From contig JASDSY010000010.1 in NCBI GenBank assembly GCA_041441465.1, positions 105,883 through 169,882 of the forward strand: a stretch of 64,000 nucleotides of DNA. Direction: 5' to 3'. The DNA is from Candidatus Wallbacteria bacterium. Lineage in GTDB: Bacteria; Muiribacteriota; UBA9980. This document shows, one piece after another, positions 1 through 34,210 of this stretch (positions are counted from its first letter, which is position 1; each line of letters starts with the position of its first letter). Position numbers and translations under genes: made by a program. The notes beneath the pieces are model-generated. The model saw only the letters and a list, made by a program, of their open reading frames with translations. It had not been told where the DNA came from and made no database searches.

Positions 1-71
1 GCCATTAATCAATATTAAGCAAACAAAAAATTAAAAGAAGCGTAAAAAAATTTGACGAATAAAAGGTATTT

Positions 72-1235
72 ATGAAATTCAAGCATTTAAAAATAATATT
101 AATAGCCATGTTAATAAGCGTTTTCACTGAAACCGCATTTGCGGCAAATTTCAAGGACGCCTGCTTTTACATAAAAAGCAAATGGGAAAATGAAAGACTG
201 GCAGCGATAAACGATTTCATCGAACTTGATAATGAAAACGCCGTGCCGTTTCTTGCGCGGGCGGTATCGGATAAAACGCCGGCCGTAAGAAAACGCGCGG
301 CAGAGGCCCTTATAAAACTTGGAAACCTTCAGGATTCTATAACGGTGCCGGCGCTTTTGGAACAGATAAAAATCGAACCCGATATCCCGACTCTCGGAGT
401 TTTAATATTCGCGCTCGGCAACTTTTCAGGCGAAGAAAACACGGTTAAAACTTTTAAGGAAGAATTTAAAAGCTATGAAGCCGAGCAAAAATACAATGTC
501 CTTGACGCGTTGATCCCGCTTGCCGTCAACCATAAAGCAGCATATCTTAATTTTTTTGAAATTATTACTGAATCGCAAAATTCCGATGACGCCCTTTTGA
601 GGCTGCACGCGGTAATAAATATGGGCGAATTCGGCGACCGTGAATATGTTACGGCGCCTTTAATAAAGGCGCTCAGCGATAAATATGACGATATACGCGC
701 GATGTCATGCAAATATCTCGGGATCATAAAACCGCAGCAAGCAATAAGGCCGCTTGTAATGGTCGGCCTTAACGATAAATCGCCGATGGTGCGCCGAAAA
801 TCTGTAATTGCCGTAAGAAATTACGCTCATCCCGATACTTTTGATTTTTTCAAAAATATCCTCGAATTCGACCTCGACGGCGAAGTACGCGGCGAAGCCG
901 CTCTCGCGTTTATCGATTTAAAAGACCGGCGCGCTCTGCCTTATCTTAAAAACGCTCTTCTGGATTCCCCGAACGTCGTGCGTCTTAATTCGGCTTACGC
1001 GCTGGCTTTTTTCGATGACGATAAAGGCCAGGAGGAGCTCGTATGGTTCTTATGGGAACAAAACCTTCCGGCGTACAGGCAGCGCGCAATTAAAGGCCTG
1101 GCAATGCTTAACAACCGAAGCGTGATAGACGATCTTCAGCGCGCGCTTTCCGACTGGGATGATATAGTCCGGGAAACGGCATTCCAGGCGCTCAGGCATA
1201 AATGGAAACATGATGTCAGAACCGAACCAAGATAA
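72..1235 (+). CDS. HEAT-repeat (PBS-lyase-like) protein with N-terminal signal peptide
   Basis: 387-aa ORF; hydrophobic N-terminus MKFKHLKIILIAMLISVFTETAFA; repeated units of the form AVRKRAAEALIKLGN / MVRRKSVIAV typical of HEAT-like repeats. Confidence 0.6.
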   Translation: MKFKHLKIILIAMLISVFTETAFAANFKDACFYIKSKWENERLAAINDFIELDNENAVPFLARAVSDKTPAVRKRAAEALIKLGNLQDSITVPALLEQIKIEPDIPTLGVLIFALGNFSGEENTVKTFKEEFKSYEAEQKYNVLDALIPLAVNHKAAYLNFFEIITESQNSDDALLRLHAVINMGEFGDREYVTAPLIKALSDKYDDIRAMSCKYLGIIKPQQAIRPLVMVGLNDKSPMVRRKSVIAVRNYAHPDTFDFFKNILEFDLDGEVRGEAALAFIDLKDRRALPYLKNALLDSPNVVRLNSAYALAFFDDDKGQEELVWFLWEQNLPAYRQRAIKGLAMLNNRSVIDDLQRALSDWDDIVRETAFQALRHKWKHDVRTEPR

Positions 1236-1324
1236 GCTGATTCATAATTTATTCAATGTTTTTTTATAAATCTTAAGTATTTAAAATTTTTAGCCGAAAA
1301 ATAATGGATTAAATTTTATAATTG

Positions 1325-1333
1325 TGGTATAAT
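1325..1333 (+). promoter_or_regulatory. extended -10 promoter element TGgTATAAT upstream of the carbamoyltransferase gene
   Basis: tggtataat about 38 nt upstream of the ATG at 1371; RBS-like gagg at 1356-1359. Confidence 0.35.
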
Positions 1334-1370
1334 ATTCCCACATAAATAAAAACTATGAGGTGTTATAGTA

Positions 1371-2555
1371 ATGAAAAATGAGGTAATGAAGTTAATATCA
1401 AAACTCAACGAACTTGATCACAAAATGTACGGAACAGATTTTTTTCTCACATGGGAAAAAAACGACGACCAGATAAACGCTACGCTTTTAACGGCTAAAA
1501 TATTGAAATCATTATACGAAGAAAACTATAGCTGCAAGCTTTTCAAATCAGGTCTCGCCATTTCAAACTTCCGCGATAACTCGACCAGAACGAGATTTTC
1601 ATTCGCTTCTGCTTCGAACCTTTTAGGCCTTGCCGTTCAGGAATTGAACGAAAGCACATCGCAGATCGCGCACGGCGAAACGGTCCGTGAAACCGCTAAT
1701 ATGATTTCATTCCTTTCAGAAGTTATCGGTATCCGCGATGATATGTATCTCGGCGAAGGCAATAAATACATGCATGAAGTCGCTGACGCTCTCGACGACG
1801 GCTATAAAAACGGTGTATTGCACCAGCGCCCTACGATAGTCAACCTTCAGTGCGATATCGACCACCCGACACAGTCTATGGCCGACCTTGCGCACTTAAT
1901 CGATTACTACGGCGGAGTTGAAAACTTAAAAGGCAAAAAAATCGCTATGACATGGGCTTATTCGCCAAGTTACGGCAAGCCGCTTTCAGTACCGCAGGGC
2001 ATTATCGGCCTTATGACAAGATTCGGCATGGATGTTACGCTCGCTCATCCTGAAGGCTATAACCTCATACCGGACACATTGAAAGTAGCCGAAAAGAACG
2101 CTAAAAAATCAGGCGGTTCGTTCAAGCATGTAAACACAATGGAAGAAGCTTTCAAAAACGCCGATATCGTTTATCCTAAATCATGGGCGCCTTTCAGCGT
2201 TATGCAGGAACGCACAACATTATTGAAGAAAAAAGACCTCGACGGCTTAAAAAATCTCGAAAAACGCTGCCTCGAAAACAACGCTAAATATAAAAACTGG
2301 GAATGCAACGAAAAAATGATGAAACTCACCAAAGGCGGCAAAGCGCTTTATATGCACTGCCTGCCTGCCGACATTTCAGGCGTTTCAAGCAAAGAAGGCG
2401 AAGTTTCAGCTAAAGTATTCGAAAAATACAGGATTGAAACATACAAAGAAGCTGGTTACAAGCCTTTTGTAATAGCCGCAATGATAGCTCTCGCGAAAGT
2501 TAAAGACATCTCAAGAGTTCTCGGCAGCCTTCGCAAAAAAAGATTCGCCGAATAA
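1371..2555 (+). CDS. ygeW: YgeW-type (long, knotted-class) carbamoyltransferase
   Basis: 394 aa; carbamoyl-phosphate binding motif STRTR (FRDNSTRTRFSF), HPTQ and HCLP motifs; about 80 aa longer than OTC/ATC, matching the YgeW family size. Confidence 0.75.
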   Translation: MKNEVMKLISKLNELDHKMYGTDFFLTWEKNDDQINATLLTAKILKSLYEENYSCKLFKSGLAISNFRDNSTRTRFSFASASNLLGLAVQELNESTSQIAHGETVRETANMISFLSEVIGIRDDMYLGEGNKYMHEVADALDDGYKNGVLHQRPTIVNLQCDIDHPTQSMADLAHLIDYYGGVENLKGKKIAMTWAYSPSYGKPLSVPQGIIGLMTRFGMDVTLAHPEGYNLIPDTLKVAEKNAKKSGGSFKHVNTMEEAFKNADIVYPKSWAPFSVMQERTTLLKKKDLDGLKNLEKRCLENNAKYKNWECNEKMMKLTKGGKALYMHCLPADISGVSSKEGEVSAKVFEKYRIETYKEAGYKPFVIAAMIALAKVKDISRVLGSLRKKRFAE

Positions 2556-2655
2556 TTAATTATAAAAAATCAGCTTAAATTTTTAAGCGAAGTTAACATA
2601 TCATAAAGTATTTAAACTTCACTTAAAAATGAAAATAAAAATTACGGGTTTTAAA

Positions 2656-2679
2656 GGGCACGCGCTAAGCGCGTGCCCC
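2656..2679. other. perfect GC-rich hairpin (gggcacgcgc-taa-gcgcgtgccc) downstream of the carbamoyltransferase gene
   Basis: 10-bp perfect inverted repeat; no clear U-run afterwards, so terminator versus regulatory hairpin is unresolved. Confidence 0.4.
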
Positions 2680-2725
2680 TGAATATTATTAAAAGTACCA
2701 AAAAAATAAAAGGGGATGGGGATTA

Positions 2726-3940
2726 ATGGACACACAGAAAATATTACAGGAAGCCAAAAATTATGAAAAAGACCTTATAAAATTTATGAGGGATTTGATA
2801 GCAATACCTGGTGAATCATGCCAGGAAGGCCCGGTAGTCAAACGCATCGAAGAGGAAATGAAAAAAGTCGGATTCGACGAAGTTAAAATAGACAAAATGG
2901 GCAATATTATAGGCCGCATCGGTAAAGGCAAGACCAAAATAATGATGGACGCTCATATCGACACAGTCGGAATAGGCGATCGCAGCGCATGGAAAATCGA
3001 TCCTTATAAAGGCGACATGAAAGACGGCATAATTTACGGACGCGGCGCTACCGATCAGCGCGGCGGCATGGTTTCAATGGTTTACGCCGGCGCTATAATC
3101 AAAAAACTCCAACTCGAAGACGATTACACTTTATACGTAACCGGCACATGCCAGGAAGAAGACTGCGACGGTCTCCCGCTTTTACATATGATCCGCGACA
3201 CTAAAGAAGTCGTTCCTGATTTCGTTGTAATCACCGAGCCTACAAACCTCGGCGTATATCGCGGCCACCGCGGCAGAATGGAAATGAAAGTCGTAACTAA
3301 AGGCGTTTCATGCCACGGTTCCGCTCCTGACCGCGGCGTCAACGCGGTTTACAAAATGATGCCTATCATTAAAGGCATTGAAAAATTAAACGAAGGCGGC
3401 TTAAAAGACGATAAATTCCTGGGCAAAGGCACAATCACGGTATCTAAAATCGAATGCCAGACACCGTCGCTCTGCGCCGTCCCTGACGAATGCACGATCT
3501 ACATCGACCGCAGAATGACCGTAGGCGAAACCGCAGAATCGTCAGTCGCCGAAATCCAGAAAATCATCGATGACAATAAAATAAAGGACGCAAAAGTTGA
3601 AATACTTCAGTACGAGGTAAAATCATGGACAGGACTCACAGTCGGCCAGGAAAAATTCTATCCGACATGGGTATTGCCTGAGGATCATAACCTTACCAAA
3701 GCCGCAGTTAAATCAGCTGAAATAGCGCTCGGCGAAAAACCGCGCGTCGACAAATGGACATTCTCGACAAACGGCGTGGCCTCAATGGGAAGACTTAACA
3801 TCCCGACCATAGGTTTCGGCCCGGCAAACGAAATATACGCTCACTCTATAAACGACCAGGTGCCTGTCGATCATCTTGTAAAAGCAGCTGCATTTTATGC
3901 TTGCTTCCCTAAAAATCTCCTTAACGAACTTAAAAAATAA
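2726..3940 (+). CDS. ygeY: M20 family peptidase/amidohydrolase, YgeY-like
   Basis: 404 aa; metal-ligand regions MMDAHIDTVG and GRGATDQRGGM typical of M20/DapE/ArgE-type hydrolases; same size as E. coli YgeY; RBS aggggatgggga. Confidence 0.7.
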   Translation: MDTQKILQEAKNYEKDLIKFMRDLIAIPGESCQEGPVVKRIEEEMKKVGFDEVKIDKMGNIIGRIGKGKTKIMMDAHIDTVGIGDRSAWKIDPYKGDMKDGIIYGRGATDQRGGMVSMVYAGAIIKKLQLEDDYTLYVTGTCQEEDCDGLPLLHMIRDTKEVVPDFVVITEPTNLGVYRGHRGRMEMKVVTKGVSCHGSAPDRGVNAVYKMMPIIKGIEKLNEGGLKDDKFLGKGTITVSKIECQTPSLCAVPDECTIYIDRRMTVGETAESSVAEIQKIIDDNKIKDAKVEILQYEVKSWTGLTVGQEKFYPTWVLPEDHNLTKAAVKSAEIALGEKPRVDKWTFSTNGVASMGRLNIPTIGFGPANEIYAHSINDQVPVDHLVKAAAFYACFPKNLLNELKK

Positions 3941-4076
3941 ATAATATCCAAACGCTATCAATAAATTCAGGAATTCGGAAGAATATTCCGGTTCCTGAAT
4001 TTATCGGGCATAATAAAATTAATTGTAAACATTAAAACATAGTAAAATTAATTATAATAACGGAGGAAATAGTCAC

Positions 4077-5015
4077 ATGAAAAAGGCAGTAATTGCGGTA
4101 GGCGGAAATTCACTTATAAAAGATAAAAATCACCAGAGCGTTCCTGACCAGTACGCTGCGGTATGCGAAACCGTAAAACACGTTACCGGCATGATCGAAA
4201 AAGGCTATAACGTCGTCATGACGCACGGCAACGGCCCGCAGGTCGGCTTCATATTAAGGCGCTCCGAAATCTCTTCAACGGAACTTCACGAAGTTCCTCT
4301 CGATTCCTGCGGCGCCGACACCCAGGGCGCAATCGGCTATCAAATTCAGCAGGCTTTTTATAACGAATTTAAAAAACGCAACATCCAAAAAAAAGCTGCA
4401 ACCGTAGTAACTCAAGTTTTAGTTGACCGCGAAGACCCGGCGTTCAAAACTCCTACCAAACCTATCGGCTCATTCATGCAAAAAGAGGAAGCCGACAAGA
4501 AAGTAAAAGAAGAAGGCTGGAACATAAAAGAAGACGCGGGCAGGGGTTACCGCCGCGTTGTGGCATCGCCTATGCCTAAAGAAATTATTGAAATCGACGC
4601 CATAAAAAAACTTATCGATTCAGACTTCATCGTAATCGCTGTCGGCGGCGGCGGCATTCCAGTACTCAAAAAAGAAAACGGCGATTTGGTCGGCACAGCC
4701 GCAGTTATCGACAAAGATTTCGCATCAGCGCTTCTTGCGGCAAATGTTAAAGCCGATGTTTTCATGATAACAACCGGCGTCGAAAAAGTCTGCATCAACT
4801 ACAATAAGCCTGACCAGAAAACAATCGATAAAATGACAATGGCCGAAGCTGAAAAATACCTTGCAGAAGGCCAGTTCCCGGCAGGCTCGATGGGCCCAAA
4901 AATCCAGGCTGCTATTATGTTTTTGAAAAACGGGGGAGAAAAAGTAATAATCACCTCGCCTGAATTCATCGAAAAAGCGATAAACGGCGAGACTGGAACC
5001 GTTATCACAAAATAA
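4077..5015 (+). CDS. yqeA: carbamate kinase family protein
   Basis: 312 aa; N-terminal AVIAVGGNSL and VVMTHGNGPQVG, and IVIAVGGGGIP, are characteristic carbamate kinase motifs; RBS ggagg. Confidence 0.75.
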   Translation: MKKAVIAVGGNSLIKDKNHQSVPDQYAAVCETVKHVTGMIEKGYNVVMTHGNGPQVGFILRRSEISSTELHEVPLDSCGADTQGAIGYQIQQAFYNEFKKRNIQKKAATVVTQVLVDREDPAFKTPTKPIGSFMQKEEADKKVKEEGWNIKEDAGRGYRRVVASPMPKEIIEIDAIKKLIDSDFIVIAVGGGGIPVLKKENGDLVGTAAVIDKDFASALLAANVKADVFMITTGVEKVCINYNKPDQKTIDKMTMAEAEKYLAEGQFPAGSMGPKIQAAIMFLKNGGEKVIITSPEFIEKAINGETGTVITK

Positions 5016-5054
5016 TTTTTCACGTTTCATAAATAATCACAATTTTAACACTAA

Positions 5055-5082
5055 ACGGCCTTTTAACAGGCCGTTTTTTTTA
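5055..5082 (+). terminator. intrinsic terminator after the carbamate kinase gene
   Basis: stem acggcct / aggccgt with loop tttaac, followed by an 8-T run. Confidence 0.7.
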
Positions 5083-5123
5083 TTTATAGATACACCATTA
5101 ATAGTTTGATCATTTTCTATGAT

Positions 5124-5411
5124 GGGGGAGTCAAAGGGCCAATGGCCCTCTAACTCCCCCTATTCCCCCCATAACTCCCGGCTATTTTTTCTTTGTTTAT
5201 TTTTAATTACCGCAAAGCGCGGACACTGTCCGCTTACTTTGCGGTAATTAAGCATTCGCGCAAAAATTTGCGCGATATGAAAATATAAGATAATATAACG
5301 AGCAGGCGCGGAGGCCTGCCGATAGACAGCAGTAAAGGTTCACGCTTATTTTATTTGATTGCCAGATACACGCAAAGCAAGTGGATACAATCCACGCTTT
5401 ACGTGTATATC
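5124..5411. repeat. cluster of five independent GC-rich hairpin palindromes in an otherwise AT-rich intergenic region
   Basis: hairpins at 5124-5160 (gggggagt...actccccc with inner agggcc/ggccct), 5203-5251 (ttaattaccgcaaag...ctttgcggtaattaa with inner gcggaca/tgtccgc), 5257-5274 (cgcgcaaa/tttgcgcg), 5302-5319 (gcaggc/gcctgc), 5365-5411 (gatacacgcaaagc...gctttacgtgtat with inner gtggat/atccac). Confidence 0.6.
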
Positions 5412-5444
5412 AGGATGGGTGGGGGTTTCAAGGAATTGTCAAAA

Positions 5445-5520
5445 AAGATTTTTTCGGGACCGCGTTCGAAAATCCTTCCGGGATTTTCGCCGCTTCCGAG
5501 ATGTCCCTGCAAAAATCTTT
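5445..5520 (+). repeat. structured intergenic element, copy A (second copy at 59611-59730)
   Basis: shares with copy B the blocks ttttttc-(g/a)ggg, hairpin aaaatcc-(t/a)tccg-ggatttt, ccgct and ccctgcaaaaat; closing helix gggac/gtccc. Confidence 0.5.
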
Positions 5521-5626
5521 TTTGACTCTAATATACATTCAATTTTTTAAAAGGTGTTTTATGAAATAAACTTTTTGATTAGCCTCTGACAAAAAAATTA
5601 AAAATGCGATGTTTTTTTTAAATATA

Positions 5627-5635
5627 TGTTATAAT
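5627..5635 (+). promoter_or_regulatory. extended -10 promoter element TGtTATAAT upstream of the 5674 gene
   Basis: tgttataat about 39 nt upstream of the ATG; RBS aaggag at 5661-5666. Confidence 0.35.
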
Positions 5636-5673
5636 TTACCTGGAAAACATTTTAAATTTAAGGAGCATTTTTA

Positions 5674-6324
5674 ATGAGAAGTAAAATAGTTTTATTTTTT
5701 ATGATTTTGACGATATTAATTTCATCAATCCCGGCTAATGCAGCAAGATTGGCCGAAGATAAAGGAAAAGAAGTGAAGCTTGACGCAGGGCAGAAGAAAA
5801 AACTGAACACTTTTTTCAGTAATTTTGCCGAAACATATCTCGAATTTTTCGCTGAAGGCAAAATTAAAAATGAAGAACTGATAAGGTTTGGAATACTGCA
5901 CAATTCAATTAATAAACCGGCTAATATAAAAAAAGTTGATAATTATTACGGTGTTCTGGCTGAAAAAGACGTCGAAACCGCCGCTAAAAAATATTTCGGC
6001 GAAATAAAAATAACAAATAAGTCAATTCAGGATTATGAATATTCGAAAGGCAATTATAAAATTCCTTATGCGGACGGCGAGGCATATAATTTTTCGCAGA
6101 TAGAAAAATTAATCGATATAAGTGATAATTATTATATCGCCTATTTAAATAACTACATTGCTTCTCCAGGTTTTACAGGCGATCCGCATGCTGCAATCGA
6201 TAAATTAAAAAAAGGCGAAGACACTCCGGAATTAAAAGATAAAATAAAAGCCGTAATAAAAAAGGTTGAAGACGGCGGCCAAAGCCGTTATATCTTAATC
6301 GAATATTTAAAAAATCAACTATAA
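5674..6324 (+). CDS. hypothetical secreted protein
   Basis: 216 aa; signal-peptide-like N-terminus MRSKIVLFFMILTILISSIPANAA; strong RBS; no family recognised. Confidence 0.55.
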   Translation: MRSKIVLFFMILTILISSIPANAARLAEDKGKEVKLDAGQKKKLNTFFSNFAETYLEFFAEGKIKNEELIRFGILHNSINKPANIKKVDNYYGVLAEKDVETAAKKYFGEIKITNKSIQDYEYSKGNYKIPYADGEAYNFSQIEKLIDISDNYYIAYLNNYIASPGFTGDPHAAIDKLKKGEDTPELKDKIKAVIKKVEDGGQSRYILIEYLKNQL

Positions 6325-6436
6325 ATTCCGCTCCGTGAATTTATAGTTACTTCATAATCACAGCAAAATAGCATAATTTCGAAATATAAAAACGATATTA
6401 TCTTAAAATAATTTAAGCATTATAAGAGGTAATAAT

Positions 6437-7288
6437 ATGGACGAAAATGATAATATAAACGCCAGCCAGAAGGAAATCGAAGGCCAGGAACATCAAAATT
6501 CAACACTCCGGCAAGAAGTGAAATTTTATATTCCGGAAATTACGAAAAATTGTGAACTTCCTGAAAATATAAAAATCGAGCTGGACACCTTTCTGGAAAC
6601 ATTGCTTAAATATTTATATGGCGGCTGTTTTCTTATAAGCTGTTATTTATTTTATGTAAGTAAATTCGGGCATTATACCGGACGCGGCAATTCAAGACAT
6701 TATATCCCTCCGGACCCGTCAGCTTTTCCTGACGCGCTATGGTTTATGGCCGGAGCTTTTTTATTTTTCATAATCGCATTAAACACCGATAATTATTACA
6801 TTTTAAACACCAAGCGAAAAACAATATATTATCACTTTAAATGCCTTTTCTGGAAATATATAAAACCGAGCCTGACTAACGATAAAATATTTGCAATCGC
6901 GGTAGACTGCAGGGAAAAACATCAAAAAAGCTCAAAATGGTGGGAATATGGAATATGCGCCGTTTCGAACGACGGAAAATTTACCGAATTAAGCGATTTT
7001 AAAAAAGATATTGAAAATCCGAACTGCCTTTCAGAACTGAATCACCAGGCAATGATAATGGCGATGGCGATGCAGTGCAAATTTGCCGAATGCCCTGAAA
7101 AACATTCGCTGCAAGCCGCAATGAACAATAATTCATTAGACCTGAAATATTTCGTGCCGCCGAAAGAAGAACCGCCGCCGCCGGCTCGACCTAAATATGA
7201 CTTCCTGCGGCTGATATTTACCGCTTTCCTGCTGATAACATTAGTCTCGGTAACGTTAATGGGATTAATGCTTTTACTTTGCAAATAG
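6437..7288 (+). CDS. hypothetical membrane protein, Cys-containing
   Basis: 283 aa; hydrophobic segments (CFLISCYLFYV, WFMAGAFLFFIIAL, C-terminal LIFTAFLLITLVSVTLMGLMLLL); RBS agagg; stop codon abuts the stop of the convergent radical SAM gene. Confidence 0.45.
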   Translation: MDENDNINASQKEIEGQEHQNSTLRQEVKFYIPEITKNCELPENIKIELDTFLETLLKYLYGGCFLISCYLFYVSKFGHYTGRGNSRHYIPPDPSAFPDALWFMAGAFLFFIIALNTDNYYILNTKRKTIYYHFKCLFWKYIKPSLTNDKIFAIAVDCREKHQKSSKWWEYGICAVSNDGKFTELSDFKKDIENPNCLSELNHQAMIMAMAMQCKFAECPEKHSLQAAMNNNSLDLKYFVPPKEEPPPPARPKYDFLRLIFTAFLLITLVSVTLMGLMLLLCK

Positions 7289-8365
7289 TTATTTCAGCAT
7301 ATCATACTGGCAATAAAGCAATTCACCGGTTTTTTCATCCCGAAGATGAAGACCGTTACCCTCGCACCAATCGAATACATCGCATTTAGCGCATTTTCCG
7401 GTTTTCATCCATGCGCGGTCGCGCATAACCTGAAATTTATTGTTCCAGCATTCTAAAAAATCGTCTTTATATATATTCCCCTGTATATAATCGGCGCGCA
7501 GGCTCGGACAGGCCGATATGGACCCGTCGGCCAGAACGGACCCTACATTTATGCCGGCGCGGCAGAACATATATCCTTTACGCGCGATATTTTCCATTCT
7601 TCCCAAAAAGCCGTCACAGGCATATTGAAGATCGATCTTGCCCTCGCGCCTGGTGTCGGCGATAAAGTCTATTATATACTTGAGCTGGTTCGACGTGACG
7701 CGCAAAAGGTCGTTCGTCAAAGCGCGGCCTTTCATAAATATATCGAAAAGACGCCATTTTTTTATCCCGATGCCTATCAAAAATTTTTTAATTTCATTAA
7801 GTTCGGTTATATTTTTCTGGGTAACGCATGTAATAGCTTCGCACACAATTTTGGGAAATTTAGACGAATGGGCAAGCGCGTTCGCAGCCGCATCGAATGA
7901 ACGTTCATTCTGCCGCAGCCAGTTATGGCTTTCGCGCAGTCCGTCAAGGCTTATCGAAACGGAATGCATCCCTGAATTCGCGAGCGAATCAAAACGCTCA
8001 TTCGTCAAAAGCATCGCGTTAGTAACAATTCCCCAGGGATAGCCGCGTTTAAAAAGCTCGAAACCGCATTCCTCGAGATCGCTTCGAAGCAGGGCCTCGC
8101 CGCCGGTAATGGCTATAAAAACATTATTCGGATTATACTGCTTTGAAATTATATCCGTTACTTTCAAAAAATCCTGATAAGGCATATCAGGCACCGTGCC
8201 GAGTTTCTGGCAATCGCTCCCGCAGTGACGGCAATTCAGCATACACCGCGAAGTGCATTCCCAGAATAAATAATTCAACTGATGTTTTCTAGTTTCCATC
8301 TTTTTGGCATAACGGAACATTTCAAGCGATATTTTCTTTTGAAAAGGAATATCAGTATAATTCAT
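7289..8365 (-). CDS. radical SAM enzyme with C-terminal SPASM-like Cys cluster
   Basis: 358 aa; CxxxCxxC motif (CMLNCRHC); glycine-rich ITGGEALL; C-terminal CAKCDVFDWCEGNG cluster; RBS gaggt. Confidence 0.7.
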   Translation of the reverse strand: MNYTDIPFQKKISLEMFRYAKKMETRKHQLNYLFWECTSRCMLNCRHCGSDCQKLGTVPDMPYQDFLKVTDIISKQYNPNNVFIAITGGEALLRSDLEECGFELFKRGYPWGIVTNAMLLTNERFDSLANSGMHSVSISLDGLRESHNWLRQNERSFDAAANALAHSSKFPKIVCEAITCVTQKNITELNEIKKFLIGIGIKKWRLFDIFMKGRALTNDLLRVTSNQLKYIIDFIADTRREGKIDLQYACDGFLGRMENIARKGYMFCRAGINVGSVLADGSISACPSLRADYIQGNIYKDDFLECWNNKFQVMRDRAWMKTGKCAKCDVFDWCEGNGLHLRDEKTGELLYCQYDMLK

Positions 8366-8615
8366 ATTATTAACCTCATTTTTACGGACGTGATTACAAA
8401 TATTATTTTATAAACTTTAATATATTATAAAACATCTTTTTATTTTTTTATACTCTTTTTTTGTTTTTTTATTTTTCGAACTTAATCGTAATTTAAGCAG
8501 TCAATATACTGAAAAAATTCATAAATATTTTTTCTGCCCCCGAAACTGCATATTCATTTTAAAATAATTAAAAGCCTACAATTTAAATTAAAGTTGACGC
8601 CATATATCAAATATA

Positions 8616-8644
8616 TTGACGAACATTGTCATTTTTTATATAAT
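8616..8644 (+). promoter_or_regulatory. consensus sigma70-type promoter TTGACG-N17-TATAAT for paralog 1
   Basis: -35 ttgacg 8616-8621, 17-nt spacer, -10 tataat 8639-8644; ggagg RBS at 8663-8667, ATG at 8677. Confidence 0.6.
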
Positions 8645-8676
8645 AGATGCAATTTAAAAATCTGGAGGCATAATCA

Positions 8677-9177
8677 ATGGATTTTATAAAAAAAAGAACT
8701 AAAAATATATTAATAAGCATCATTGCGTTTTTACTTGTAAGTCCGGGTTTTATCGCCGATTATTTGTTTGCGCAAAATAATTTAGTCAATGAAAAAACGG
8801 AAGAAGTAAAGGCAAATAAAATGCCGCTGCCGGAACCGCCGGTTTACGGAATGCCGCCGACGCGTTTTGATCATAACATGCCGGGCCGCAATATTTCGGT
8901 TATAAGCGCCAGGCCGAAAGTCAAAAAGAGCTTTTCAGGAATAATAGTATCCGCCGGCTCAGAAACACCTCTTCCAGGAATGATATTAGAAATACAACAG
9001 CTCAACTCCAGGACAATTACGAGTAAAACCGGAGCTTTCAAATTTCAGGAGCTTTACGCCGAAAAAGATTCGGATAAATTTATCATGACAATAACCAACT
9101 CAGAAGACAGAAGCATTTGCCGGACGATGGAAATAGAGTTAACTAAAAGCGGCAGTACTATTGAAGTTTCATTATAA
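8677..9177 (+). CDS. small secreted protein, paralog 1, with C-terminal carboxypeptidase-regulatory-like beta-sandwich motif
   Basis: 166 aa; signal peptide KNILISIIAFLLVSPGF; C-terminal GIIVSAGSETPLPGMILEI...TGAFKF pattern; ends KSGSTIEVSL. Confidence 0.6.
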   Translation: MDFIKKRTKNILISIIAFLLVSPGFIADYLFAQNNLVNEKTEEVKANKMPLPEPPVYGMPPTRFDHNMPGRNISVISARPKVKKSFSGIIVSAGSETPLPGMILEIQQLNSRTITSKTGAFKFQELYAEKDSDKFIMTITNSEDRSICRTMEIELTKSGSTIEVSL

Positions 9178-9223
9178 TATCAGAATTCAAGTATTTTTAA
9201 TTAAATTGAAAACAATAAAAATA

Positions 9224-9252
9224 TTGACTGACACCGATAATTGTAATATAAT
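9224..9252 (+). promoter_or_regulatory. consensus sigma70-type promoter TTGACT-N17-TATAAT for paralog 2
   Basis: -35 ttgact 9224-9229, 17-nt spacer, -10 tataat 9247-9252; ggagg RBS at 9284-9288. Confidence 0.6.
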
Positions 9253-9293
9253 GATTTTTAAAACAAAGCATTATGAAAAATTCGGAGGAAATC

Positions 9294-9749
9294 ATGATAG
9301 AATTTATAAAGATAAAAGCTAAAAATATGTTAATAAGCATTATAGCGTTTTTACTTGTAAGCCCGTGTTTACTGACCGATTATTTATTCGCCGGCGATTC
9401 GGCTTTAAAGGAAAAAGTAAATATGGCAAACGAAGATATGGCAGCCACTAAATATGGCGGCCCGGCAATGAATTTTGACGAAGATATAATATTGGAAAAA
9501 CTTGTAGAATTATTCGGCGTGGTTACATCAAAGGAAACGAAAAAACCTGTCGAAGGCATTATTATAAAAATCCAGGATTCAAAAGCAAAAGCTGTAACCG
9601 GTAAAGACGGCATGTTTAAATTCCCTCCATGCCCGCCCAGATTAAAAAAAGTTACACTGGAAGTAAAAGACGCCAAAGACGAAAAACTTCTGCAGACCAA
9701 AGAAGTGGAGCTTAAAAATGCCGGCTCTACAATCGAAATTTCACTTTAA
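9294..9749 (+). CDS. small secreted protein, paralog 2 (start moved to RBS-supported ATG)
   Basis: ORF track starts at 9273, but ggagg sits 6 nt upstream of the ATG at 9294, giving MIEFIKIKAKNMLISIIAFLLVSP parallel to paralog 1; ends NAGSTIEISL. Confidence 0.6.
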   Translation: MIEFIKIKAKNMLISIIAFLLVSPCLLTDYLFAGDSALKEKVNMANEDMAATKYGGPAMNFDEDIILEKLVELFGVVTSKETKKPVEGIIIKIQDSKAKAVTGKDGMFKFPPCPPRLKKVTLEVKDAKDEKLLQTKEVELKNAGSTIEISL

Positions 9750-26456: not shown

Positions 26457-28094
26457 ATGATTAAAGGCAAACTAATCGACTTATTTGCAAGGAAAATATT
26501 TCCGGCCGAAGTTATAATCTCAGAAAACAAAATCGGTAAAATTAATGATTTAACCGGAAAAATTACAGATGAAGAAACAAAAAAATTACCGTATATTATG
26601 CCTGGATTTGTTGATGCCCACATCCACATAGAAAGCTCTATGCTCACCCCGTCGAATTTCGCAGTAGCGGCAGTACCGCACGGCACAATAGCTACAGTTT
26701 CCGATCCTCATGAAATAGCCAACGTAATAGGCGCCGCCGGAATTGATTTCATGCTCAATGATGCAGCTAAAGTACCTTTAAAATTTTACTTCAGCGTTCC
26801 GTCATGCGTGCCGTTCGAAAAATTCGGCGGCATAATTAACGATTCCGAATTCGAAAAATTCATGGCGCATGAAAAAATAAAATGCCTCGGTGAAGTAATG
26901 GATTTTCCAGGTGTAATAAATGATCACGACGGGATAATGAAAAAAATAGAACTGGCTAAAAAATATAACAAAATCTCCGACGGCCATGCCCCCGGCTTAT
27001 CAGGCGACGCGGCAAAAAAATATTTCGGCGCCGGCATAACAACGGACCATGAATGTATGACATTCGAAGAGGCCGTCGAAAAAGCCAACCTCGGAGTCAT
27101 GGTGCAAATTCGCGAAGGGTCAGCCGCCAAAAATTTCAATGATATAATAAAACTCATCGAGATAAAACCGCAAAATTGTATGTTTTGCAGCGACGACCGT
27201 CACCCTGACGATTTATTGCACGGCCATATCAATTTATTAGTAAAAAAAGCGTTAAAATCAGGTTATGATCTGTTTGACGTTTTAAACGCCGCATCGACAA
27301 ATGCGATCAGGCATTACAAACTTGATTGCGGCCTTTTAAGAAAAGGCGATTTTGCGGATTTCATAATAGTAGACGATCTCGACAATTTCAACATCGAACG
27401 AGTATTCATAAACGGCGCCGAAATTGCCGCGCACGGCAAGGCTTTATTTAATGCCGCCGGATTGAGCCACATCAACCGTTTTAAAACACATGAAAAAACC
27501 GTCGATGATTTTAAAATTTTATATAACGGCCAAAAGCCAGTAAAAGTAAAAGTTATCGAAGCGATCGACGGCCAGCTCGTCACCGGCAAAACCAGTTTTA
27601 TTCCGCAAATAGAAAATAATTGCGTTCTGGCGGATGTTAAAAACGACATTTTAAAAATAGCGATAGTCAATAGATACTGCGATTCTCCAATTTCGGTCGG
27701 GTTCATAAAAAATTTCGGCATGAAAAACGGCGCCCTGGCGTCAAGCGTAATGCACGACTCGCATAATATAATCGCAGTAGGCGTTTCCGATGAGGCTATA
27801 TGCCGCGCTGTCAACGTTATAATAAAAAATAAGGGCGGCATATGCGTGGCGGCTGATTCAGGCGAGATGAGCCTGCCGCTTCCGATTGCCGGAATAATAT
27901 CAGACCTCGGCTGCCTCGAACTCGCACATAAGTACGAAGAAATACAAAACTTTGCCGCGCAGACCGGCACGACTCTTAAATCGCCTTTTATGACACTTTC
28001 ATTTATGGCGTTAACGGTCATTCCCGAATTAAAAATCAGCGCCGAAGGCTTATTCGATGTCACAAACTTTAAAGTCACGAGCCTGTTTGAGTAA
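26457..28094 (+). CDS. ade: adenine deaminase
   Basis: 545 aa; amidohydrolase metal-binding start GFVDAHIHIESS and overall Ade-like layout. Confidence 0.7.
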   Translation: MIKGKLIDLFARKIFPAEVIISENKIGKINDLTGKITDEETKKLPYIMPGFVDAHIHIESSMLTPSNFAVAAVPHGTIATVSDPHEIANVIGAAGIDFMLNDAAKVPLKFYFSVPSCVPFEKFGGIINDSEFEKFMAHEKIKCLGEVMDFPGVINDHDGIMKKIELAKKYNKISDGHAPGLSGDAAKKYFGAGITTDHECMTFEEAVEKANLGVMVQIREGSAAKNFNDIIKLIEIKPQNCMFCSDDRHPDDLLHGHINLLVKKALKSGYDLFDVLNAASTNAIRHYKLDCGLLRKGDFADFIIVDDLDNFNIERVFINGAEIAAHGKALFNAAGLSHINRFKTHEKTVDDFKILYNGQKPVKVKVIEAIDGQLVTGKTSFIPQIENNCVLADVKNDILKIAIVNRYCDSPISVGFIKNFGMKNGALASSVMHDSHNIIAVGVSDEAICRAVNVIIKNKGGICVAADSGEMSLPLPIAGIISDLGCLELAHKYEEIQNFAAQTGTTLKSPFMTLSFMALTVIPELKISAEGLFDVTNFKVTSLFE

Positions 28095-28206: not shown

Positions 28207-29916
28207 ATGAAAATAAAAGATATTAAAATAAATGCTCTGTTTTTTAAAATATGTCTTTTAGCCGGCGTATTTTTGTACATCTTTGCGGGTTTATTCCATG
28301 GCAATTGTGAAGCCCGACAATTAAGGCTTGGCGCTTATAAATACCTGTCAGACGCCGATATGAAAAAAGTTCTCGACCCGTTCACGAACTATCTGTCAAA
28401 ATCGTTAAAAATACAGGTTAAGTTATATATTACTTCGACCTATACGGAGCTTGCGCAGCGTTTTATTTCGGGCGAAATGGATATGGCCATGATTCCGCCA
28501 TATGCTTATGTCAAGCTTGCCGACAAGATAAAAATGCAGCTTGCGGCTTCAATGAAACTTGACGGCTCATATTTTTATAACGGCGTAATAGTCGTCAAAG
28601 CCGATTCGGGCATCAACTCGATCGCTGATCTTACGAAAAAGCAATTCGCTTACGTATCGCCGGACAGCGCATCGGGTTACCTTTATCCAAGAATTTTAAT
28701 AAAAAAACAGGGCCTCGATCCGGATAATATGTTCTCTAAAGTCATATTTTCTGGCTCTCACGCCGAGTCAATAAAATCACTCGCGTCAGGAATGGTAGAC
28801 GGCATTTCTGTTTTCAAAACCGCCCTTGATTATTCCAACAACCAGGGTATCGATACATCTAAACTAAAAATAATAGCGGAAACGGAAAAAATACCGCACG
28901 AAGCTTTTATAGTTCAAAACAATATGGACCCCGCGCTTCTGTCATCCCTGAAACAGGCGTTGATCACTTTTAAATATTCGCCTCAGGAGATGGCCGAATT
29001 AGAAAAAAATTCCAAACAGGGCGTATTTAAGGTCGAAGGCTGGGTAGTGGGCCTTGACTCGCTTTATGACACGGTACGCGAGGCGCATAAATATTTTCCG
29101 GTAAAAGAACTCGAGAATACATCGAAAGATACAAACGCCGTAACAATCGGATATTATCCGCGCACCGATATAGACTCGACATTAAAATCGTTCGCGCCAC
29201 TTATCGAATATCTGTCAAAAGAAACAGGCTATAAATTTAAGCTGGCTTTCTCGCCGAATTATATCGACGTCGGCAACCAGCTGATAGAAGGCAATTATGA
29301 CATCGGCATAGTCACCCCGATTGCATTTGTAATGGCCAAAGAAAAATCCAAAACACCTATTAATGCACTAATTCAGCGTTCGACTGCCGGATTGACAACT
29401 TATAAAGGGATTCTGGTCAGCAAAAACGACGGCAAAATAAACAAGATAGAAGATTTAAAAGGCAAAATTTTCGCTTTTACAGAACCTGATTCAATTTCAG
29501 GAAGATTATACCCGCTTTCTATTTTTAAAAAGAACGGCATTTCAATAAAGACTTTTTTTGCAAAAACGTATTATGCAGGCTGTCCCAAAAAAGCACTTGA
29601 AGATGTCGCCGCGGGTTCGGCTGACGCATGCGCCTGCAATGACGCTGAGTTCAAGCTTTTAACCGAAGCCGATCCAAAACTTTTAAATTCGTTGAAAGTT
29701 TTTTATGTTACGCCGGAAATACCATATGAGTATTGGACGGTTATGGAAAATTCAAATCCGCTCATACGCGACAAATTCCAGGCCGCCGTTTTAAAAATTA
29801 ACTCAAATCCTCAATTAAAAAAAGAACTTCTTGAAAAAATTTTTTATGACGGTTTTTCAGCGCCTGACGAAAAAGGGCTGAATGAAATAATGGAAATGCT
29901 CAAAATTATTTTATGA
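28207..29916 (+). CDS. tandem PhnD-like periplasmic binding protein (two phosphonate-binding-type domains)
   Basis: 569 aa; N-terminal membrane anchor; internal duplication (FAYVSPDSASGYLYPRILIKKQGLDPD versus FAFTEPDSISGRLYPLSIFKKNGI). Confidence 0.6.
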   Translation: MKIKDIKINALFFKICLLAGVFLYIFAGLFHGNCEARQLRLGAYKYLSDADMKKVLDPFTNYLSKSLKIQVKLYITSTYTELAQRFISGEMDMAMIPPYAYVKLADKIKMQLAASMKLDGSYFYNGVIVVKADSGINSIADLTKKQFAYVSPDSASGYLYPRILIKKQGLDPDNMFSKVIFSGSHAESIKSLASGMVDGISVFKTALDYSNNQGIDTSKLKIIAETEKIPHEAFIVQNNMDPALLSSLKQALITFKYSPQEMAELEKNSKQGVFKVEGWVVGLDSLYDTVREAHKYFPVKELENTSKDTNAVTIGYYPRTDIDSTLKSFAPLIEYLSKETGYKFKLAFSPNYIDVGNQLIEGNYDIGIVTPIAFVMAKEKSKTPINALIQRSTAGLTTYKGILVSKNDGKINKIEDLKGKIFAFTEPDSISGRLYPLSIFKKNGISIKTFFAKTYYAGCPKKALEDVAAGSADACACNDAEFKLLTEADPKLLNSLKVFYVTPEIPYEYWTVMENSNPLIRDKFQAAVLKINSNPQLKKELLEKIFYDGFSAPDEKGLNEIMEMLKIIL

Positions 29917-29958
29917 TTGCGGTATGTTATAAATACCGGCCTTATAATGGAGGAATTT

Positions 29959-31197: not shown

Positions 31198-31199
31198 AA

Positions 31200-33388: not shown

Positions 33389-34210
33389 TTGAGTTTAAAA
33401 CACGATGAACTTAAAGTACACGCAAAATCAATCAGGAAAAACATTGTAAAAATGATTTATGAGGCAAATTCGGGGCATCCGGGCGGTTCGCTGTCGGCTG
33501 CCGACCTTATCACATCGCTTTATTTCAATCATTTGAAGCATGATCCGCGCATGCCTGAAATGGAAAACCGCGACCGCGTAATTTTTTCGAAAGGTCACGC
33601 TTCTCCGCTTCTTTACGCTACACTTGCCGAATGCGGTTATATCAAACAGGACGAACTTCAGACATTTCGTAAAATCAACTCGAGGCTTCAGGGCCATCCG
33701 GTTTACCACAAAGTCGAAGGTGTCGAAGCCACAGGCGGCCCGCTCGGACAGGGTTTCAGTTTCGGCGTAGGCGTGGCGCTCGCCTCAAGAGTAAATAAAA
33801 TAGATTACCGCGTTTATGTGCTTTTAGGCGACGGCGAACTGCAGGAAGGCCTTGTATGGGAAGCCGCAATGGCGGCCGGCCACTACAAACTTTCGAATAT
33901 GTGCTGTATGCTCGACTATAACGGCCTGCAAATCGACGGCAGCGTCGAAAAAGTAATGGGCGTCTCACCGGTAGCCGATAAATTCAGGGCATTTAACTTC
34001 AATGTTATTGAAATCGACGGTCACGACTATAATCAGATCGATGCGGCATTCAGACTCGCTAAGGCGAAAACCGATAAACCTACAATCATAATAGCTCATA
34101 CTGTAAAGGGAAAAGGCGTATCGTTCATGGAAAACGATTACACATGGCACGGCAAAGCCCCTAATAAAGAGCAGACAGAAAAAGCGTTAAGCGACATCGA
34201 CAAAATGTAA
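33389..34210 (+). CDS. transketolase, N-terminal (TPP-binding) subunit
   Basis: 273 aa; SGHPGGSLSAADL and GDGELQEG motifs. Confidence 0.8.
   Translation: MSLKHDELKVHAKSIRKNIVKMIYEANSGHPGGSLSAADLITSLYFNHLKHDPRMPEMENRDRVIFSKGHASPLLYATLAECGYIKQDELQTFRKINSRLQGHPVYHKVEGVEATGGPLGQGFSFGVGVALASRVNKIDYRVYVLLGDGELQEGLVWEAAMAAGHYKLSNMCCMLDYNGLQIDGSVEKVMGVSPVADKFRAFNFNVIEIDGHDYNQIDAAFRLAKAKTDKPTIIIAHTVKGKGVSFMENDYTWHGKAPNKEQTEKALSDIDKM

What the first reader, a model, noticed from the sequence alone, without database searches (positions are those of the whole stretch)
1371..5015. Compact YgeW-type carbamoyltransferase / M20 hydrolase / carbamate kinase trio
Seen: three co-directional genes encode a long carbamoyltransferase (STRTR, HPTQ, HCLP; 394 aa), an M20 hydrolase (404 aa) and a carbamate kinase (312 aa), with one terminator after the third. 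Established knowledge: in E. coli ygeW, ygeY and yqeA belong to a larger island (with ygeX and hyuA) associated with anaerobic purine/urate catabolism, and the natural substrate of YgeW-type transcarbamylases has long been unclear. Inference: this minimal trio would allow hydrolytic release of a carbamoylated or ureido compound, phosphorolysis to carbamoyl phosphate, and ATP gain via carbamate kinase. The absence of the ammonia-lyase and hydantoinase-like genes here suggests a reduced or different substrate pathway. Adenine deaminase is encoded in the same window at 26457.
Basis: partly seen in the sequence, partly recalled or inferred. Interest (0 to 1): 0.45.

Follow-up and report, generated by a model that had tools for sequence, protein, structure and literature searches.

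The report
Stand-alone ureido-cleaving, ATP-yielding YgeW operon
Three adjacent genes in a Candidatus Wallbacteria genome are clear counterparts of the E. coli enzymes YgeW, YgeY and carbamate kinase, which since 2025 are known to strip two urea-like groups off a purine breakdown product and make ATP; here they stand alone without the rest of that pathway, which is mildly unusual but not a new kind of system.

Summary
Window 1371-2555, 2726-3940 and 4077-5015 (+ strand) encode a YgeW knotted carbamoyltransferase (691 bits, cutoff 453; 68.5% identical to E. coli YgeW), a YgeY M20 hydrolase (580 bits, cutoff 321; 54%) and a carbamate kinase (47% to YqeA). A clean terminator follows at 5053-5081.

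Two 2025 papers showed that YgeW phosphorolyses 2,3-diureidopropionate, an intermediate of the 2,8-dioxopurine (reductive urate) pathway, to carbamoyl phosphate. YqeA converts that to ATP. YgeY then hydrolyses the remaining ureido group to give 2,3-diaminopropionate. So YgeY acts after YgeW, not before it.

The source is a Candidatus Wallbacteria MAG. No YgeX, HyuA, SsnA, YgfK or XdhD homologue occurs in 82 kb (window plus 8.6 kb left and 9.5 kb right). The same isolated trio recurs in other Wallbacteria in two further, unrelated neighbourhoods.

In a sample of reference genomes, 14 of 40 well-flanked ygeW loci also lack purine genes nearby. The Wallbacteria YgeW and YgeY are no more divergent than orthologues that do sit beside ring-opening genes.

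Most likely this is the same chemistry packaged as a separate operon. Whether the genome encodes the upstream steps elsewhere could not be tested. It is a new member of a known kind, of modest interest.

The parts
1325..1333 (+). Promoter-like extended -10 (TGGTATAAT) in the AT-rich (20% GC) 135-bp region upstream of ygeW. The RBS GAGGTG lies at 1357-1362.
   Evidence: The sequence itself. The consensus scan did not list it. This is a consensus match only, and function is not shown. No sigma-54 promoter is present here.
1371..2555 (+). ygeW: knotted carbamoyltransferase, 394 aa.
   Evidence: NF005538 690.6 bits against cutoff 453. It is 68.5% identical to E. coli YgeW over 390 aa with no gaps. 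PDB 3Q98 scores 592 bits. It keeps 191 of 210 positions that are invariant in 21 orthologues from full clusters.
2656..2678 (+). Strong GC hairpin (GGGCACGCGC-TAA-GCGCGTGCCC) in the 170-bp ygeW-ygeY spacer, with no T-run. It may be an mRNA stability or processing element, or a partial attenuator.
   Evidence: Other Wallbacteria spacers also carry GC hairpins, but their sequences are not conserved.
2726..3940 (+). ygeY: M20 metallo-hydrolase, 404 aa.
   Evidence: NF009555 580.4 bits against cutoff 321. It is 54.3% identical to E. coli YgeY. Four conserved sequence segments shared with E. coli YgeY (AHIDTV, DQxGG, QEEDCDG, TEPT) are present; assigning them to the M20 metal or catalytic site rests on my knowledge of the family, not on a test here. 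It keeps 133 of 181 positions invariant in full-cluster orthologues, the same range as ring-linked environmental YgeYs.
3964..4001 (+). Long hairpin in the 136-bp ygeY-kinase spacer, with no T-run. The RBS GGAGGAAA lies at 4062-4069.
4077..5015 (+). Carbamate kinase (arcC/yqeA type), 312 aa.
   Evidence: NF009007 429.3 bits against cutoff 266 and TIGR00746 390.3 against 358.25. It is 47.3% identical to E. coli YqeA. NCBI accession MEZ7890877.1, 'carbamate kinase [Candidatus Wallbacteria bacterium]'.
5053..5081 (+). Intrinsic-terminator-like hairpin (AAACGGCC...GGCCGTTT) followed by T8, which closes the unit.

Best explanation
The trio is a self-contained operon for the lower, ureido-cleaving and ATP-yielding part of the 2,8-dioxopurine (reductive urate) pathway. 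The inferred steps are as follows. YgeW phosphorolyses one ureido group of 2,3-diureidopropionate to carbamoyl phosphate plus a mono-ureido-aminopropionate. Carbamate kinase converts carbamoyl phosphate and ADP to ATP, CO2 and NH3, which pulls the unfavourable phosphorolysis forward. YgeY hydrolyses the second ureido group to give 2,3-diaminopropionate, CO2 and NH3. In this Candidatus Wallbacteria lineage the module is uncoupled in the genome from the ring-reducing and ring-opening enzymes and from diaminopropionate ammonia-lyase. Those are most probably encoded elsewhere in the genome, so the pathway would be dispersed rather than absent. What is shown: the orthology of all three proteins, the operon-like layout, and the isolation of the trio and its conservation. 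What is inferred: the substrate, the order of steps, and the presence of the partner genes elsewhere.
For: All three proteins score well above the curated cutoffs of their equivalog models. Identities to the E. coli enzymes are 68.5%, 54.3% and 47.3%. The E. coli enzymes were characterised in vitro. YgeW plus YqeA make ATP from UA-5, which the preprint assigns provisionally as 2,3-diureidopropanoate. YgeY then yields diaminopropionate (10.1101/2025.04.24.650524; PMC12507026). The window YgeW keeps 191 of 210 residues that are invariant across 21 full-cluster orthologues. That lies inside the 184-205 range of YgeWs that sit beside SsnA, YgfK or HyuA in other environmental phyla. YgeY keeps 133 of 181, against 128-137 for the same comparison group. 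The neighbour-joining tree of YgeW follows taxonomy, not gene context, so isolated copies are not a separate paralogue clade. Pathway genes are often dispersed. In Candidatus Rifleibacterium the ygeY-ygeW pair lies about 4 kb from a bona fide SsnA (539 bits). In spirochaetes, XdhD and YgeY lie 3-10 kb from ygeW. ygeX is nearby in only 15 of 40 well-flanked loci. Good RBSs, a single terminator, and the absence of + strand promoter-like sites in either spacer fit one transcription unit.
Against: No YgeX, HyuA, SsnA, YgfK or XdhD homologue occurs in 82.1 kb around the trio. None was found by tblastn in Wallbacteria loci L003, L004, L090 and L093, and none appears in the gene lists of L091 and L092, which repeat L090's synteny; these loci cover about 3-10 kb a side. 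Among the 120 best homologues of the Rifleibacterium SsnA, none is labelled Wallbacteria. That test has low power, because most entries carry no name. No transporter and no purine gene are conserved next to the trio. The two papers disagree on which ureido group YgeW removes, the 3-ureido or the 2-ureido. No enzyme from this lineage has been assayed.
Confidence: 0.58

Rival explanations
1. The chemistry is the same, but the module is autonomous and used for scavenging. Wallbacteria would lack the ring-opening enzymes and take up 2,3-diureidopropionate, or mono-ureido-aminopropionates such as albizziin, released by other purine or urate degraders. That would yield 1 ATP and 2 NH3 per molecule. 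The diaminopropionate would be excreted or handled by an unrelated enzyme.
For: The trio is the only conserved unit across three unrelated Wallbacteria neighbourhoods. No partner gene lies within 82 kb. No Wallbacteria-labelled SsnA was found. Mutants of C. sporogenes and E. coli release pathway intermediates into culture supernatants, so these compounds can leave cells. By stoichiometry the trio alone is energetically and nutritionally productive (inference).
Against: No transporter is adjacent or conserved. Release of intermediates by wild-type degraders is not documented in the text I read. Absence from the whole genome has not been shown. Dispersed pathway genes are common in other phyla.
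Confidence: 0.2
2. The substrate is different. In Wallbacteria the YgeW/YgeY pair would act on another N-carbamoyl (ureido) compound unrelated to urate, making the trio a distinct catabolic route.
For: The isolation from purine genes is conserved. Fourteen of 40 well-flanked ygeW loci in reference genomes have no purine gene nearby. Wallbacteria share the substitutions D93N and K96T in the YgeW loop that aligns with the AOTCase 80s loop. That loop sets specificity in AOTCase, a point I recall from memory and did not test here. There is also a lineage-specific patch in YgeY, aa 146-150 PLLHM instead of CWQYI, next to the conserved QEEDCDG segment.
Against: The same N93 and T96 occur in a spirochaete YgeW (L044) that sits next to YgeY and a 53%-identical XdhD. 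L069 has A95 and S96 and sits with SsnA (53%), YgfK (51%) and XdhD (53%). So these loop changes do not separate purine-linked from isolated copies. Overall conservation is as high as in purine-linked orthologues. The tree shows no paralogue split.
Confidence: 0.15
3. An ordinary arginine-deiminase or agmatine-deiminase type pathway, that is, a catabolic ornithine or putrescine transcarbamylase plus carbamate kinase.
For: The layout of a transcarbamylase with a carbamate kinase resembles arcB-arcC. Weak sub-threshold hits to OTC and PTC models exist.
Against: The best OTC model scores 115.7 bits against a cutoff of 280.85, and the PTC model 97.8 against 500, while YgeW scores 690.6 against 453. 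No arginine or agmatine deiminase is adjacent. The best PDB matches are YgeW structures at 580-592 bits, against about 72 bits for OTC.
Confidence: 0.02
4. A biosynthetic role. Carbamate kinase would make carbamoyl phosphate and YgeW would carbamoylate an amine to build a ureido metabolite.
For: The equilibrium of transcarbamylases favours carbamoylation (PMC4016543).
Against: Pairing with a ureido-hydrolysing M20 enzyme in one operon makes no sense for synthesis. The orthologues act catabolically, with ATP production demonstrated.
Confidence: 0.03

Closest known systems
E. coli ygeW-ygeX-ygeY-hyuA-yqeA operon within the xdhD-ygfK-ssnA island (2,8-dioxopurine / reductive urate pathway; 10.1101/2025.04.24.650524 and PMC12507026)
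   Same: The three proteins are orthologous at 68.5%, 54.3% and 47.3% identity. All hit the equivalog HMMs, and all three genes point the same way. The inferred logic is the same: phosphorolysis of a ureido group coupled to carbamate kinase for substrate-level ATP, followed by hydrolysis of the second ureido group.
   Different: ygeX and hyuA are not between the three genes. There is no ssnA, ygfK, xdhD, ygfM, purine permease or YgeV-type regulator within 82 kb, and no sigma-54 promoter upstream. The gene order is W-Y-CK. The host is an uncultured candidate phylum, Wallbacteria, not a gut Enterobacterium or Clostridium.
Clostridial and Lachnospiraceae uric-acid clusters (for example Eubacterium callanderi L062 and Oribacterium L076)
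   Same: The ygeX-ygeY-ygeW-carbamate kinase core has the kinase immediately downstream of ygeW. YgeW is 65-69% identical to the window protein.
   Different: Those clusters also carry ygeX, ssnA and ygfK, with or without hyuA, within 10 kb. In them ygeY precedes ygeW, whereas here ygeY lies between ygeW and the kinase.
Arginine deiminase pathway (ArcB catabolic OTC plus ArcC carbamate kinase)
   Same: The energy-conserving principle is the same: transcarbamylase phosphorolysis yields carbamoyl phosphate, which yields ATP. The 2025 preprint draws this analogy itself.
   Different: The transcarbamylase subfamily is different: the OTC models score far below their cutoffs. There is no deiminase, and the substrate is a diureido acid rather than citrulline.
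Ureidoglycine carbamoyltransferase plus carbamate kinase of Rubrobacter xylanophilus (PMC4016543)
   Same: It also pairs a purine-catabolic transcarbamylase with an adjacent carbamate kinase, and phosphorolysis replaces a hydrolase.
   Different: That enzyme is a 'pseudo-ATCase' acting on allantoate in the oxidative route. It is a different subfamily from YgeW.
C. difficile variant in which UacY (a D-aminoacylase-like hydrolase) replaces YgeW and YqeA (PMC12507026)
   Same: It shows that the ureido-cleaving step is a modular, exchangeable part of the pathway.
   Different: The direction is opposite. C. difficile lost the ATP-yielding module and kept the rest of the pathway. Here only the ATP-yielding module is seen.

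Membership tests
YgeW knotted carbamoyltransferase (NF005538 / TIGR03316) | Whole-protein score above the curated equivalog cutoff | tested here: met
   690.6 bits against 453, and 660.9 against 500.
YgeW knotted carbamoyltransferase (NF005538 / TIGR03316) | Carbamoyl-phosphate and transcarbamylase signature motifs STRTR, HPTQ and HCLP | tested here: met
   Found at aa 71, 165 and 329. Pfam OTCace_N and OTCace both hit.
YgeW knotted carbamoyltransferase (NF005538 / TIGR03316) | Full-length similarity to the solved YgeW structures, including the roughly 60-aa insertions that make it longer than OTC | tested here: met
   3Q98 scores 592 bits over aa 4-386 and 2YFK 580 bits. The alignment to E. 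coli YgeW is gap-free at 68.5% identity.
YgeW knotted carbamoyltransferase (NF005538 / TIGR03316) | Trefoil-knotted fold | not tested
   Inferred only from 68.5% identity to 3Q98. No model was built.
YgeW knotted carbamoyltransferase (NF005538 / TIGR03316) | Phosphorolysis of 2,3-diureidopropionate to carbamoyl phosphate | not testable with these tools
   Shown only for the E. coli enzyme. Indirect support comes from 191 of 210 full-cluster-invariant residues being kept.
YgeY M20 hydrolase (NF009555 / TIGR03526) | Equivalog score above cutoff and conserved sequence segments shared with E. coli YgeY | tested here: met
   580.4 bits against 321. The segments AHIDTV, DQxGG, QEEDCDG and TEPT are shared with E. 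coli YgeY; that they form the M20 metal or catalytic site rests on my knowledge of the family. Identity is 54.3%.
Carbamate kinase (TIGR00746 arcC) | Equivalog score above cutoff | tested here: met
   390.3 bits against 358.25, and NF009007 429.3 against 266.
2,8-dioxopurine / reductive urate degradation gene cluster | Co-localisation of at least 4 of 7 marker genes (Xdh, YgfK, SsnA, HyuA, YgeW, YgeY, YgeX), adapting the genome-level criterion of 10.1101/2025.04.24.650524 | tested here: not met
   Only YgeW and YgeY, 2 of 7, plus carbamate kinase, occur in 82.1 kb. The published criterion applies to whole genomes, and that could not be tested.
2,8-dioxopurine / reductive urate degradation gene cluster | SsnA within a 15-gene neighbourhood (the marker used in PMC12507026) | tested here: not met
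   No SsnA homologue was found. Adenine deaminase is the only amidohydrolase-superfamily protein found in the window, and it scores as TIGR01178.
Arginine/agmatine deiminase pathway transcarbamylases (OTC, PTC) | Score above the OTC or PTC model cutoff | tested here: not met
   OTC 115.7 bits against 280.85, and PTC 97.8 against 500.

The most novel reading that the evidence does not exclude
In Wallbacteria, and perhaps in the many environmental bacteria with solitary or paired ygeW, the YgeW-YgeY-carbamate kinase trio is an autonomous module. It would harvest ATP and nitrogen from externally supplied ureido acids, either diureidopropionate cross-fed from other purine degraders or a ureido compound not yet identified. 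If so, YgeW has a wider ecological role than the gut urate pathway in which it was just characterised.
Probability: 0.25. Interest if true: 0.55.

Novelty: new member of a known kind. Interest (0 to 1): 0.3.

Why it matters
The finding places the recently solved YgeW/YgeY/YqeA chemistry in an uncultured candidate phylum. It also shows that the ATP-yielding end of the pathway can exist as a separate, conserved operon.

The survey adds a point the two 2025 papers do not discuss in the passages I read. About a third of well-flanked ygeW loci in a sample of reference genomes lack purine-ring genes nearby. Surveys that call the pathway from clustered genes may therefore misjudge who can use its intermediates. 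If the module proves autonomous, it would point to cross-feeding on purine breakdown intermediates in anoxic communities.

Otherwise it is an ordinary case of a dispersed pathway, and the annotation can be upgraded from 'putative' to a specific predicted function.

Tried and rejected
1. Purine genes elsewhere in the window. The large ORFs at 15-25 kb turned out to be a sigma-54 PAS regulator and cheA/W/MCP/R/B. Every other ORF of 150 aa or more that does not lie inside a longer annotated ORF was scanned, and none is purine-related except adenine deaminase.

2. Regulation like E. coli YgeV. There is no sigma-54 promoter upstream of ygeW. The eight loose matches in the window are fewer than the 22 expected by chance.

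3. A riboswitch or leader in the long spacers. The Rfam E-value scan of 1-7000 gave only noise: MIR8008, L20 leader and OxyS, all far below their gathering scores. The ygeW-ygeY spacer is not conserved among Wallbacteria.

4. The specificity-loop lead. D93N and K96T align with the AOTCase 80s loop, but I rejected them as discriminating. N93/T96 and A95/S96 also occur in YgeWs linked to XdhD, SsnA and YgfK.

5. Finding the source genome among the GTDB representatives.

6. A Wallbacteria SsnA. I probed the large protein collection with the Rifleibacterium SsnA. No hit among the top 120 is labelled Wallbacteria, nor among 10 unnamed clusters checked. This is inconclusive because most entries carry no name.

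7. Published MAG taxonomy tables. The held supplements of the preprint contain no taxonomy terms.

8. The YgeW structure paper (PMC3115391) is not held.

9. No solved YgeY structure was found at E <= 1e-30.

10. The annotated E. coli locus was not available to the sandbox, so I pasted translated proteins in by hand.


Full report
**Observation**

The three co-directional ORFs are exactly as described: 1371-2555 (394 aa), 2726-3940 (404 aa) and 4077-5015 (312 aa), all on the + strand. NCBIfam equivalog models place them unambiguously:

| Protein | Model | Bits | Cutoff |
|---|---|---|---|
| YgeW | NF005538 | 690.6 | 453 |
| YgeW | TIGR03316 | 660.9 | 500 |
| YgeY | NF009555 | 580.4 | 321 |
| Carbamate kinase | NF009007 | 429.3 | 266 |
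| Carbamate kinase | TIGR00746 | 390.3 | 358.25 |

The best ornithine, N-acetylornithine, putrescine and aspartate transcarbamylase models reach only 73-116 bits against cutoffs of 237-500.

The motifs STRTR, HPTQ and HCLP sit at aa 71, 165 and 329. The nearest solved structures are the two YgeW entries, 3Q98 at 592 bits and 2YFK at 580 bits. OTC structures score about 72 bits.

**Anatomy of the unit**

- The 135-bp region upstream of ygeW is 20% GC and carries an extended -10 (TGGTATAAT, 1325-1333) and an RBS.
- Both internal spacers are long, at 170 and 136 bp. Each holds a strong hairpin without a T-run (2656-2678 and 3964-4001). Neither contains a + strand promoter-like site.
- A 9-bp GC hairpin plus T8 (5053-5081) follows the kinase.
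- This fits one transcription unit, possibly with internal processing or stability elements. Co-transcription is inferred, not shown.
- No sigma-54 promoter and no Rfam family is present.

**What the orthologues do**

The preprint 10.1101/2025.04.24.650524 reconstituted the '2,8-dioxopurine pathway' in vitro. The steps are:

1. Urate is converted to 2,8-dioxopurine by the Mo-hydroxylase.
2. YgfK reduces it.
3. [quoted passage not shown]
4. HyuA opens the hydantoin, giving 2,3-diureidopropanoate.
5. YgeW cleaves one ureido group. Together with YqeA, Mg and ADP this makes ATP.
6. YgeY hydrolyses the second ureido group, giving 2,3-diaminopropionate.
7. YgeX converts that to pyruvate.

PMC12507026 reaches the same scheme independently. 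It differs only on which ureido group YgeW removes, with albizziin as the intermediate. It notes that the phosphorolysis is thermodynamically unfavourable. That explains why the preprint found that YqeA stimulates YgeW.

**Similarity to the characterised enzymes**

I fetched the MG1655 island and used its translated proteins as tblastn queries.

- YgeW is 68.5% identical over 390 aa with no gaps.
- YgeY is 54.3% identical.
- YqeA is 47.3% identical.

**Is the trio really alone?**

Yes, as far as the sequence reaches.

- tblastn with E. coli YgeX, HyuA, SsnA, YgfK and XdhD finds only noise at E <= 1 in the window.
- A Logan contig, L001, is 100% identical to window 1-4169 and adds 8,630 bp on the left. 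It encodes a SpoIIE response regulator, an MCP, a PilT-like ATPase, GH77, FBP aldolase and a HEAT protein.
- L098 is 100% identical to window 59674-64000 and adds 9,474 bp on the right. It encodes an MmeI-type methyltransferase, DUF1016 and others.
- Neither extension holds a pathway gene, so 82.1 kb in total are free of them.
- Every other window ORF of 150 aa or more that does not lie inside a longer annotated ORF was scanned and is unrelated: a sigma-54 PAS regulator, a chemotaxis operon, a C11 peptidase, a PhnD-like binding protein, a CHASE2 cyclase, a split transketolase, thyX, a tungsten-type AOR, moaA, galE-like, MeaB, recQ and an SNF2 helicase.
- Adenine deaminase (26457-28094; TIGR01178, 599 bits) is the only purine enzyme. 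It lies 21 kb away behind unrelated operons.

**Organism and conservation**

Exact-sequence look-up identifies the window proteins as NCBI MEZ7890876.1 (YgeY), MEZ7890877.1 (carbamate kinase), MEZ7890894.1 (adenine deaminase), MEZ7890907.1 (MoaA) and MEZ7890919.1 (RecQ). All come from a 'Candidatus Wallbacteria bacterium' MAG on a 462-kb contig. Of the closest YgeW relatives (83-85% identical), the two clusters checked (P0007 and P0008) are also labelled Wallbacteria.

Their contexts show the same intact trio in two further, unrelated neighbourhoods:

- EF-G, PAS histidine kinase, [W-Y-CK], with or without a flavodiiron gene, then GlnRS, SurE and YjgF (L003 and L090-L093).
- Cytochromes, GH57, an RHS-like gene, [W-Y-CK], then unknown genes (L004).

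A near-identical strain, 98.9% at the DNA level, shares the window's context (L094). The trio itself is thus the conserved unit. No neighbour, transporter or regulator is conserved with it.

**Wider survey**

A scan of GTDB representative genomes returned 80 YgeW loci with flanks of up to 10 kb a side. I screened them by tblastn for the E. coli pathway proteins.

Complete clusters (W, Y, CK, X, SsnA, YgfK, with or without HyuA) occur in Enterobacteria, Aeromonas and Clostridia. Environmental phyla show every degree of dispersal. Among the 40 loci with at least 8 kb on both sides:

| Context | Loci |
|---|---|
| Full cluster | 15 |
| Ring genes present, no ygeX | 7 |
| Only a Mo-hydroxylase-like gene nearby | 4 |
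| Isolated ygeW + ygeY | 5 |
| Solitary ygeW | 9 |

An isolated ygeW is therefore common (14 of 40). The isolated W+Y+CK trio is rarer, seen in Wallbacteria and one Bacteriovoracaceae MAG (L014).

Candidatus Rifleibacterium (L016), one of the candidate phyla in the sample, has ygeY-ygeW about 4 kb from a bona fide SsnA (539 bits against cutoff 444) and an 8-oxoguanine deaminase.

**Has the Wallbacteria enzyme diverged in function?**

I found no sign of it.

- Of 210 alignment positions invariant in 21 full-cluster YgeWs, the window protein keeps 191. YgeWs that sit next to SsnA, YgfK or HyuA in other environmental phyla keep 184-205.
- For YgeY the figures are 133 of 181, against 128-137.
- A neighbour-joining tree follows taxonomy rather than context.
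- Two substitutions shared by Wallbacteria (D93N, K96T) fall in the loop that aligns with the AOTCase 80s loop. I recall this loop as a specificity determinant, but that is from memory. The same residues occur in purine-linked spirochaete YgeWs (L044 and L069), so they do not discriminate.
- One lineage-specific patch remains unexplained: YgeY aa 146-150 read PLLHM instead of CWQYI.

**Explanation**

The best-supported reading (about 0.58) is that this is the known lower module of the reductive urate / 2,8-dioxopurine pathway, packaged as its own operon, with the remaining genes elsewhere in the genome.

I could not test the last clause. The genome scan did not retrieve the Wallbacteria genome. 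A probe with the Rifleibacterium SsnA found no Wallbacteria-labelled homologue among the top 120, or among 10 unnamed clusters, but most entries carry no name.

The rivals are:

- An autonomous scavenging or cross-feeding module (about 0.2). By stoichiometry the trio alone would yield 1 ATP and 2 NH3.
- A different ureido substrate (about 0.15).
- An ADI-type pathway (about 0.02), which the family scores refute.
- A biosynthetic role (about 0.03), which is implausible.

**Verdict**

- It is a new member of a known kind, in an unusual stand-alone arrangement within a candidate phylum.
- Interest is modest (0.3).

Noticed in passing
window 5120-5560: A highly structured non-coding stretch lies right after the trio's terminator. 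The MFE is -192.5 kcal/mol for the 561-nt stretch 5120-5680. It contains several long GC-rich hairpins, for example at 5203-5251 and 5438-5526. It is unique within the window, has no credible ORF, and gives only sub-threshold Rfam noise. It could be an uncharacterised sRNA, a REP-like element or a relic.
   Followed up: partly
window 2656-2678 and 3964-4001: Both intergenic spacers of the operon carry strong hairpins without T-runs. The ygeW-ygeY spacers of other Wallbacteria (L003, L090, L004) also carry GC-rich hairpins, but their sequences are not conserved. This may reflect differential mRNA stability or attenuation within the operon.
   Followed up: partly
window 3161-3175 (YgeY aa 146-150): Wallbacteria YgeYs read PLLHM where 46 of 52 other YgeYs read C-W-(Q/K)-Y-(I/L). 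The patch follows directly after the conserved QEEDCDG segment. Its structural position is unknown, and no YgeY structure has been solved.
   Followed up: partly
L010-L089 (GTDB YgeW loci): About a third of well-flanked ygeW loci (14 of 40) have no SsnA, YgfK, HyuA, YgeX or Mo-hydroxylase gene within 8-10 kb. Solitary ygeW is common in Spirochaetales, Verrucomicrobiota, Bacteroidales and groundwater candidate phyla. This is not discussed in the passages of the two 2025 pathway papers that I read.
   Followed up: partly
window 39500-44773: A tungsten-type aldehyde:ferredoxin oxidoreductase (AFOR_N and AFOR_C; 39500-41344, - strand) sits next to a 721-aa ORF with no family hit (41385-43550, - strand) and a divergent moaA (43802-44773).
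   Followed up: no
window 60109-63474 and L098 3804-8098: An SNF2/PLD-type helicase with DISARM DrmD-like and DpdE-like hits is followed, just beyond the window, by an MmeI-type methyltransferase/Eco57I gene and a DUF1016 (YhcG) nuclease-like gene. This is a likely anti-phage defence island.
   Followed up: no
window 7289-9749: A radical SAM/SPASM gene (7289-8365, - strand) lies next to two paralogous small secreted proteins (8677-9177 and 9273-9749). Their signal peptides are near-identical (…LISIIAFLLVSP…DYLFA), as are their C-termini (…GSTIE(V/I)SL). They may be a maturase-substrate pair.
   Followed up: no
window 28207-33152: A fused double PhnD-like periplasmic binding protein (569 aa, two Phosphonate-bd stretches) is followed by a 426-aa protein of unknown function and a CHASE2-adenylate/guanylate cyclase. 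This may be a solute-sensing signalling unit directly downstream of adenine deaminase.
   Followed up: no
window 33389-35268: Transketolase is split into separate N-terminal (273 aa) and C-terminal (328 aa) genes.
   Followed up: no
L004 11267-12928: In one Wallbacteria MAG (GCA_964551445.1) the YgeY homologue is called as 553 aa rather than about 404 aa. This is probably a mis-called start or an N-terminal extension.
   Followed up: no
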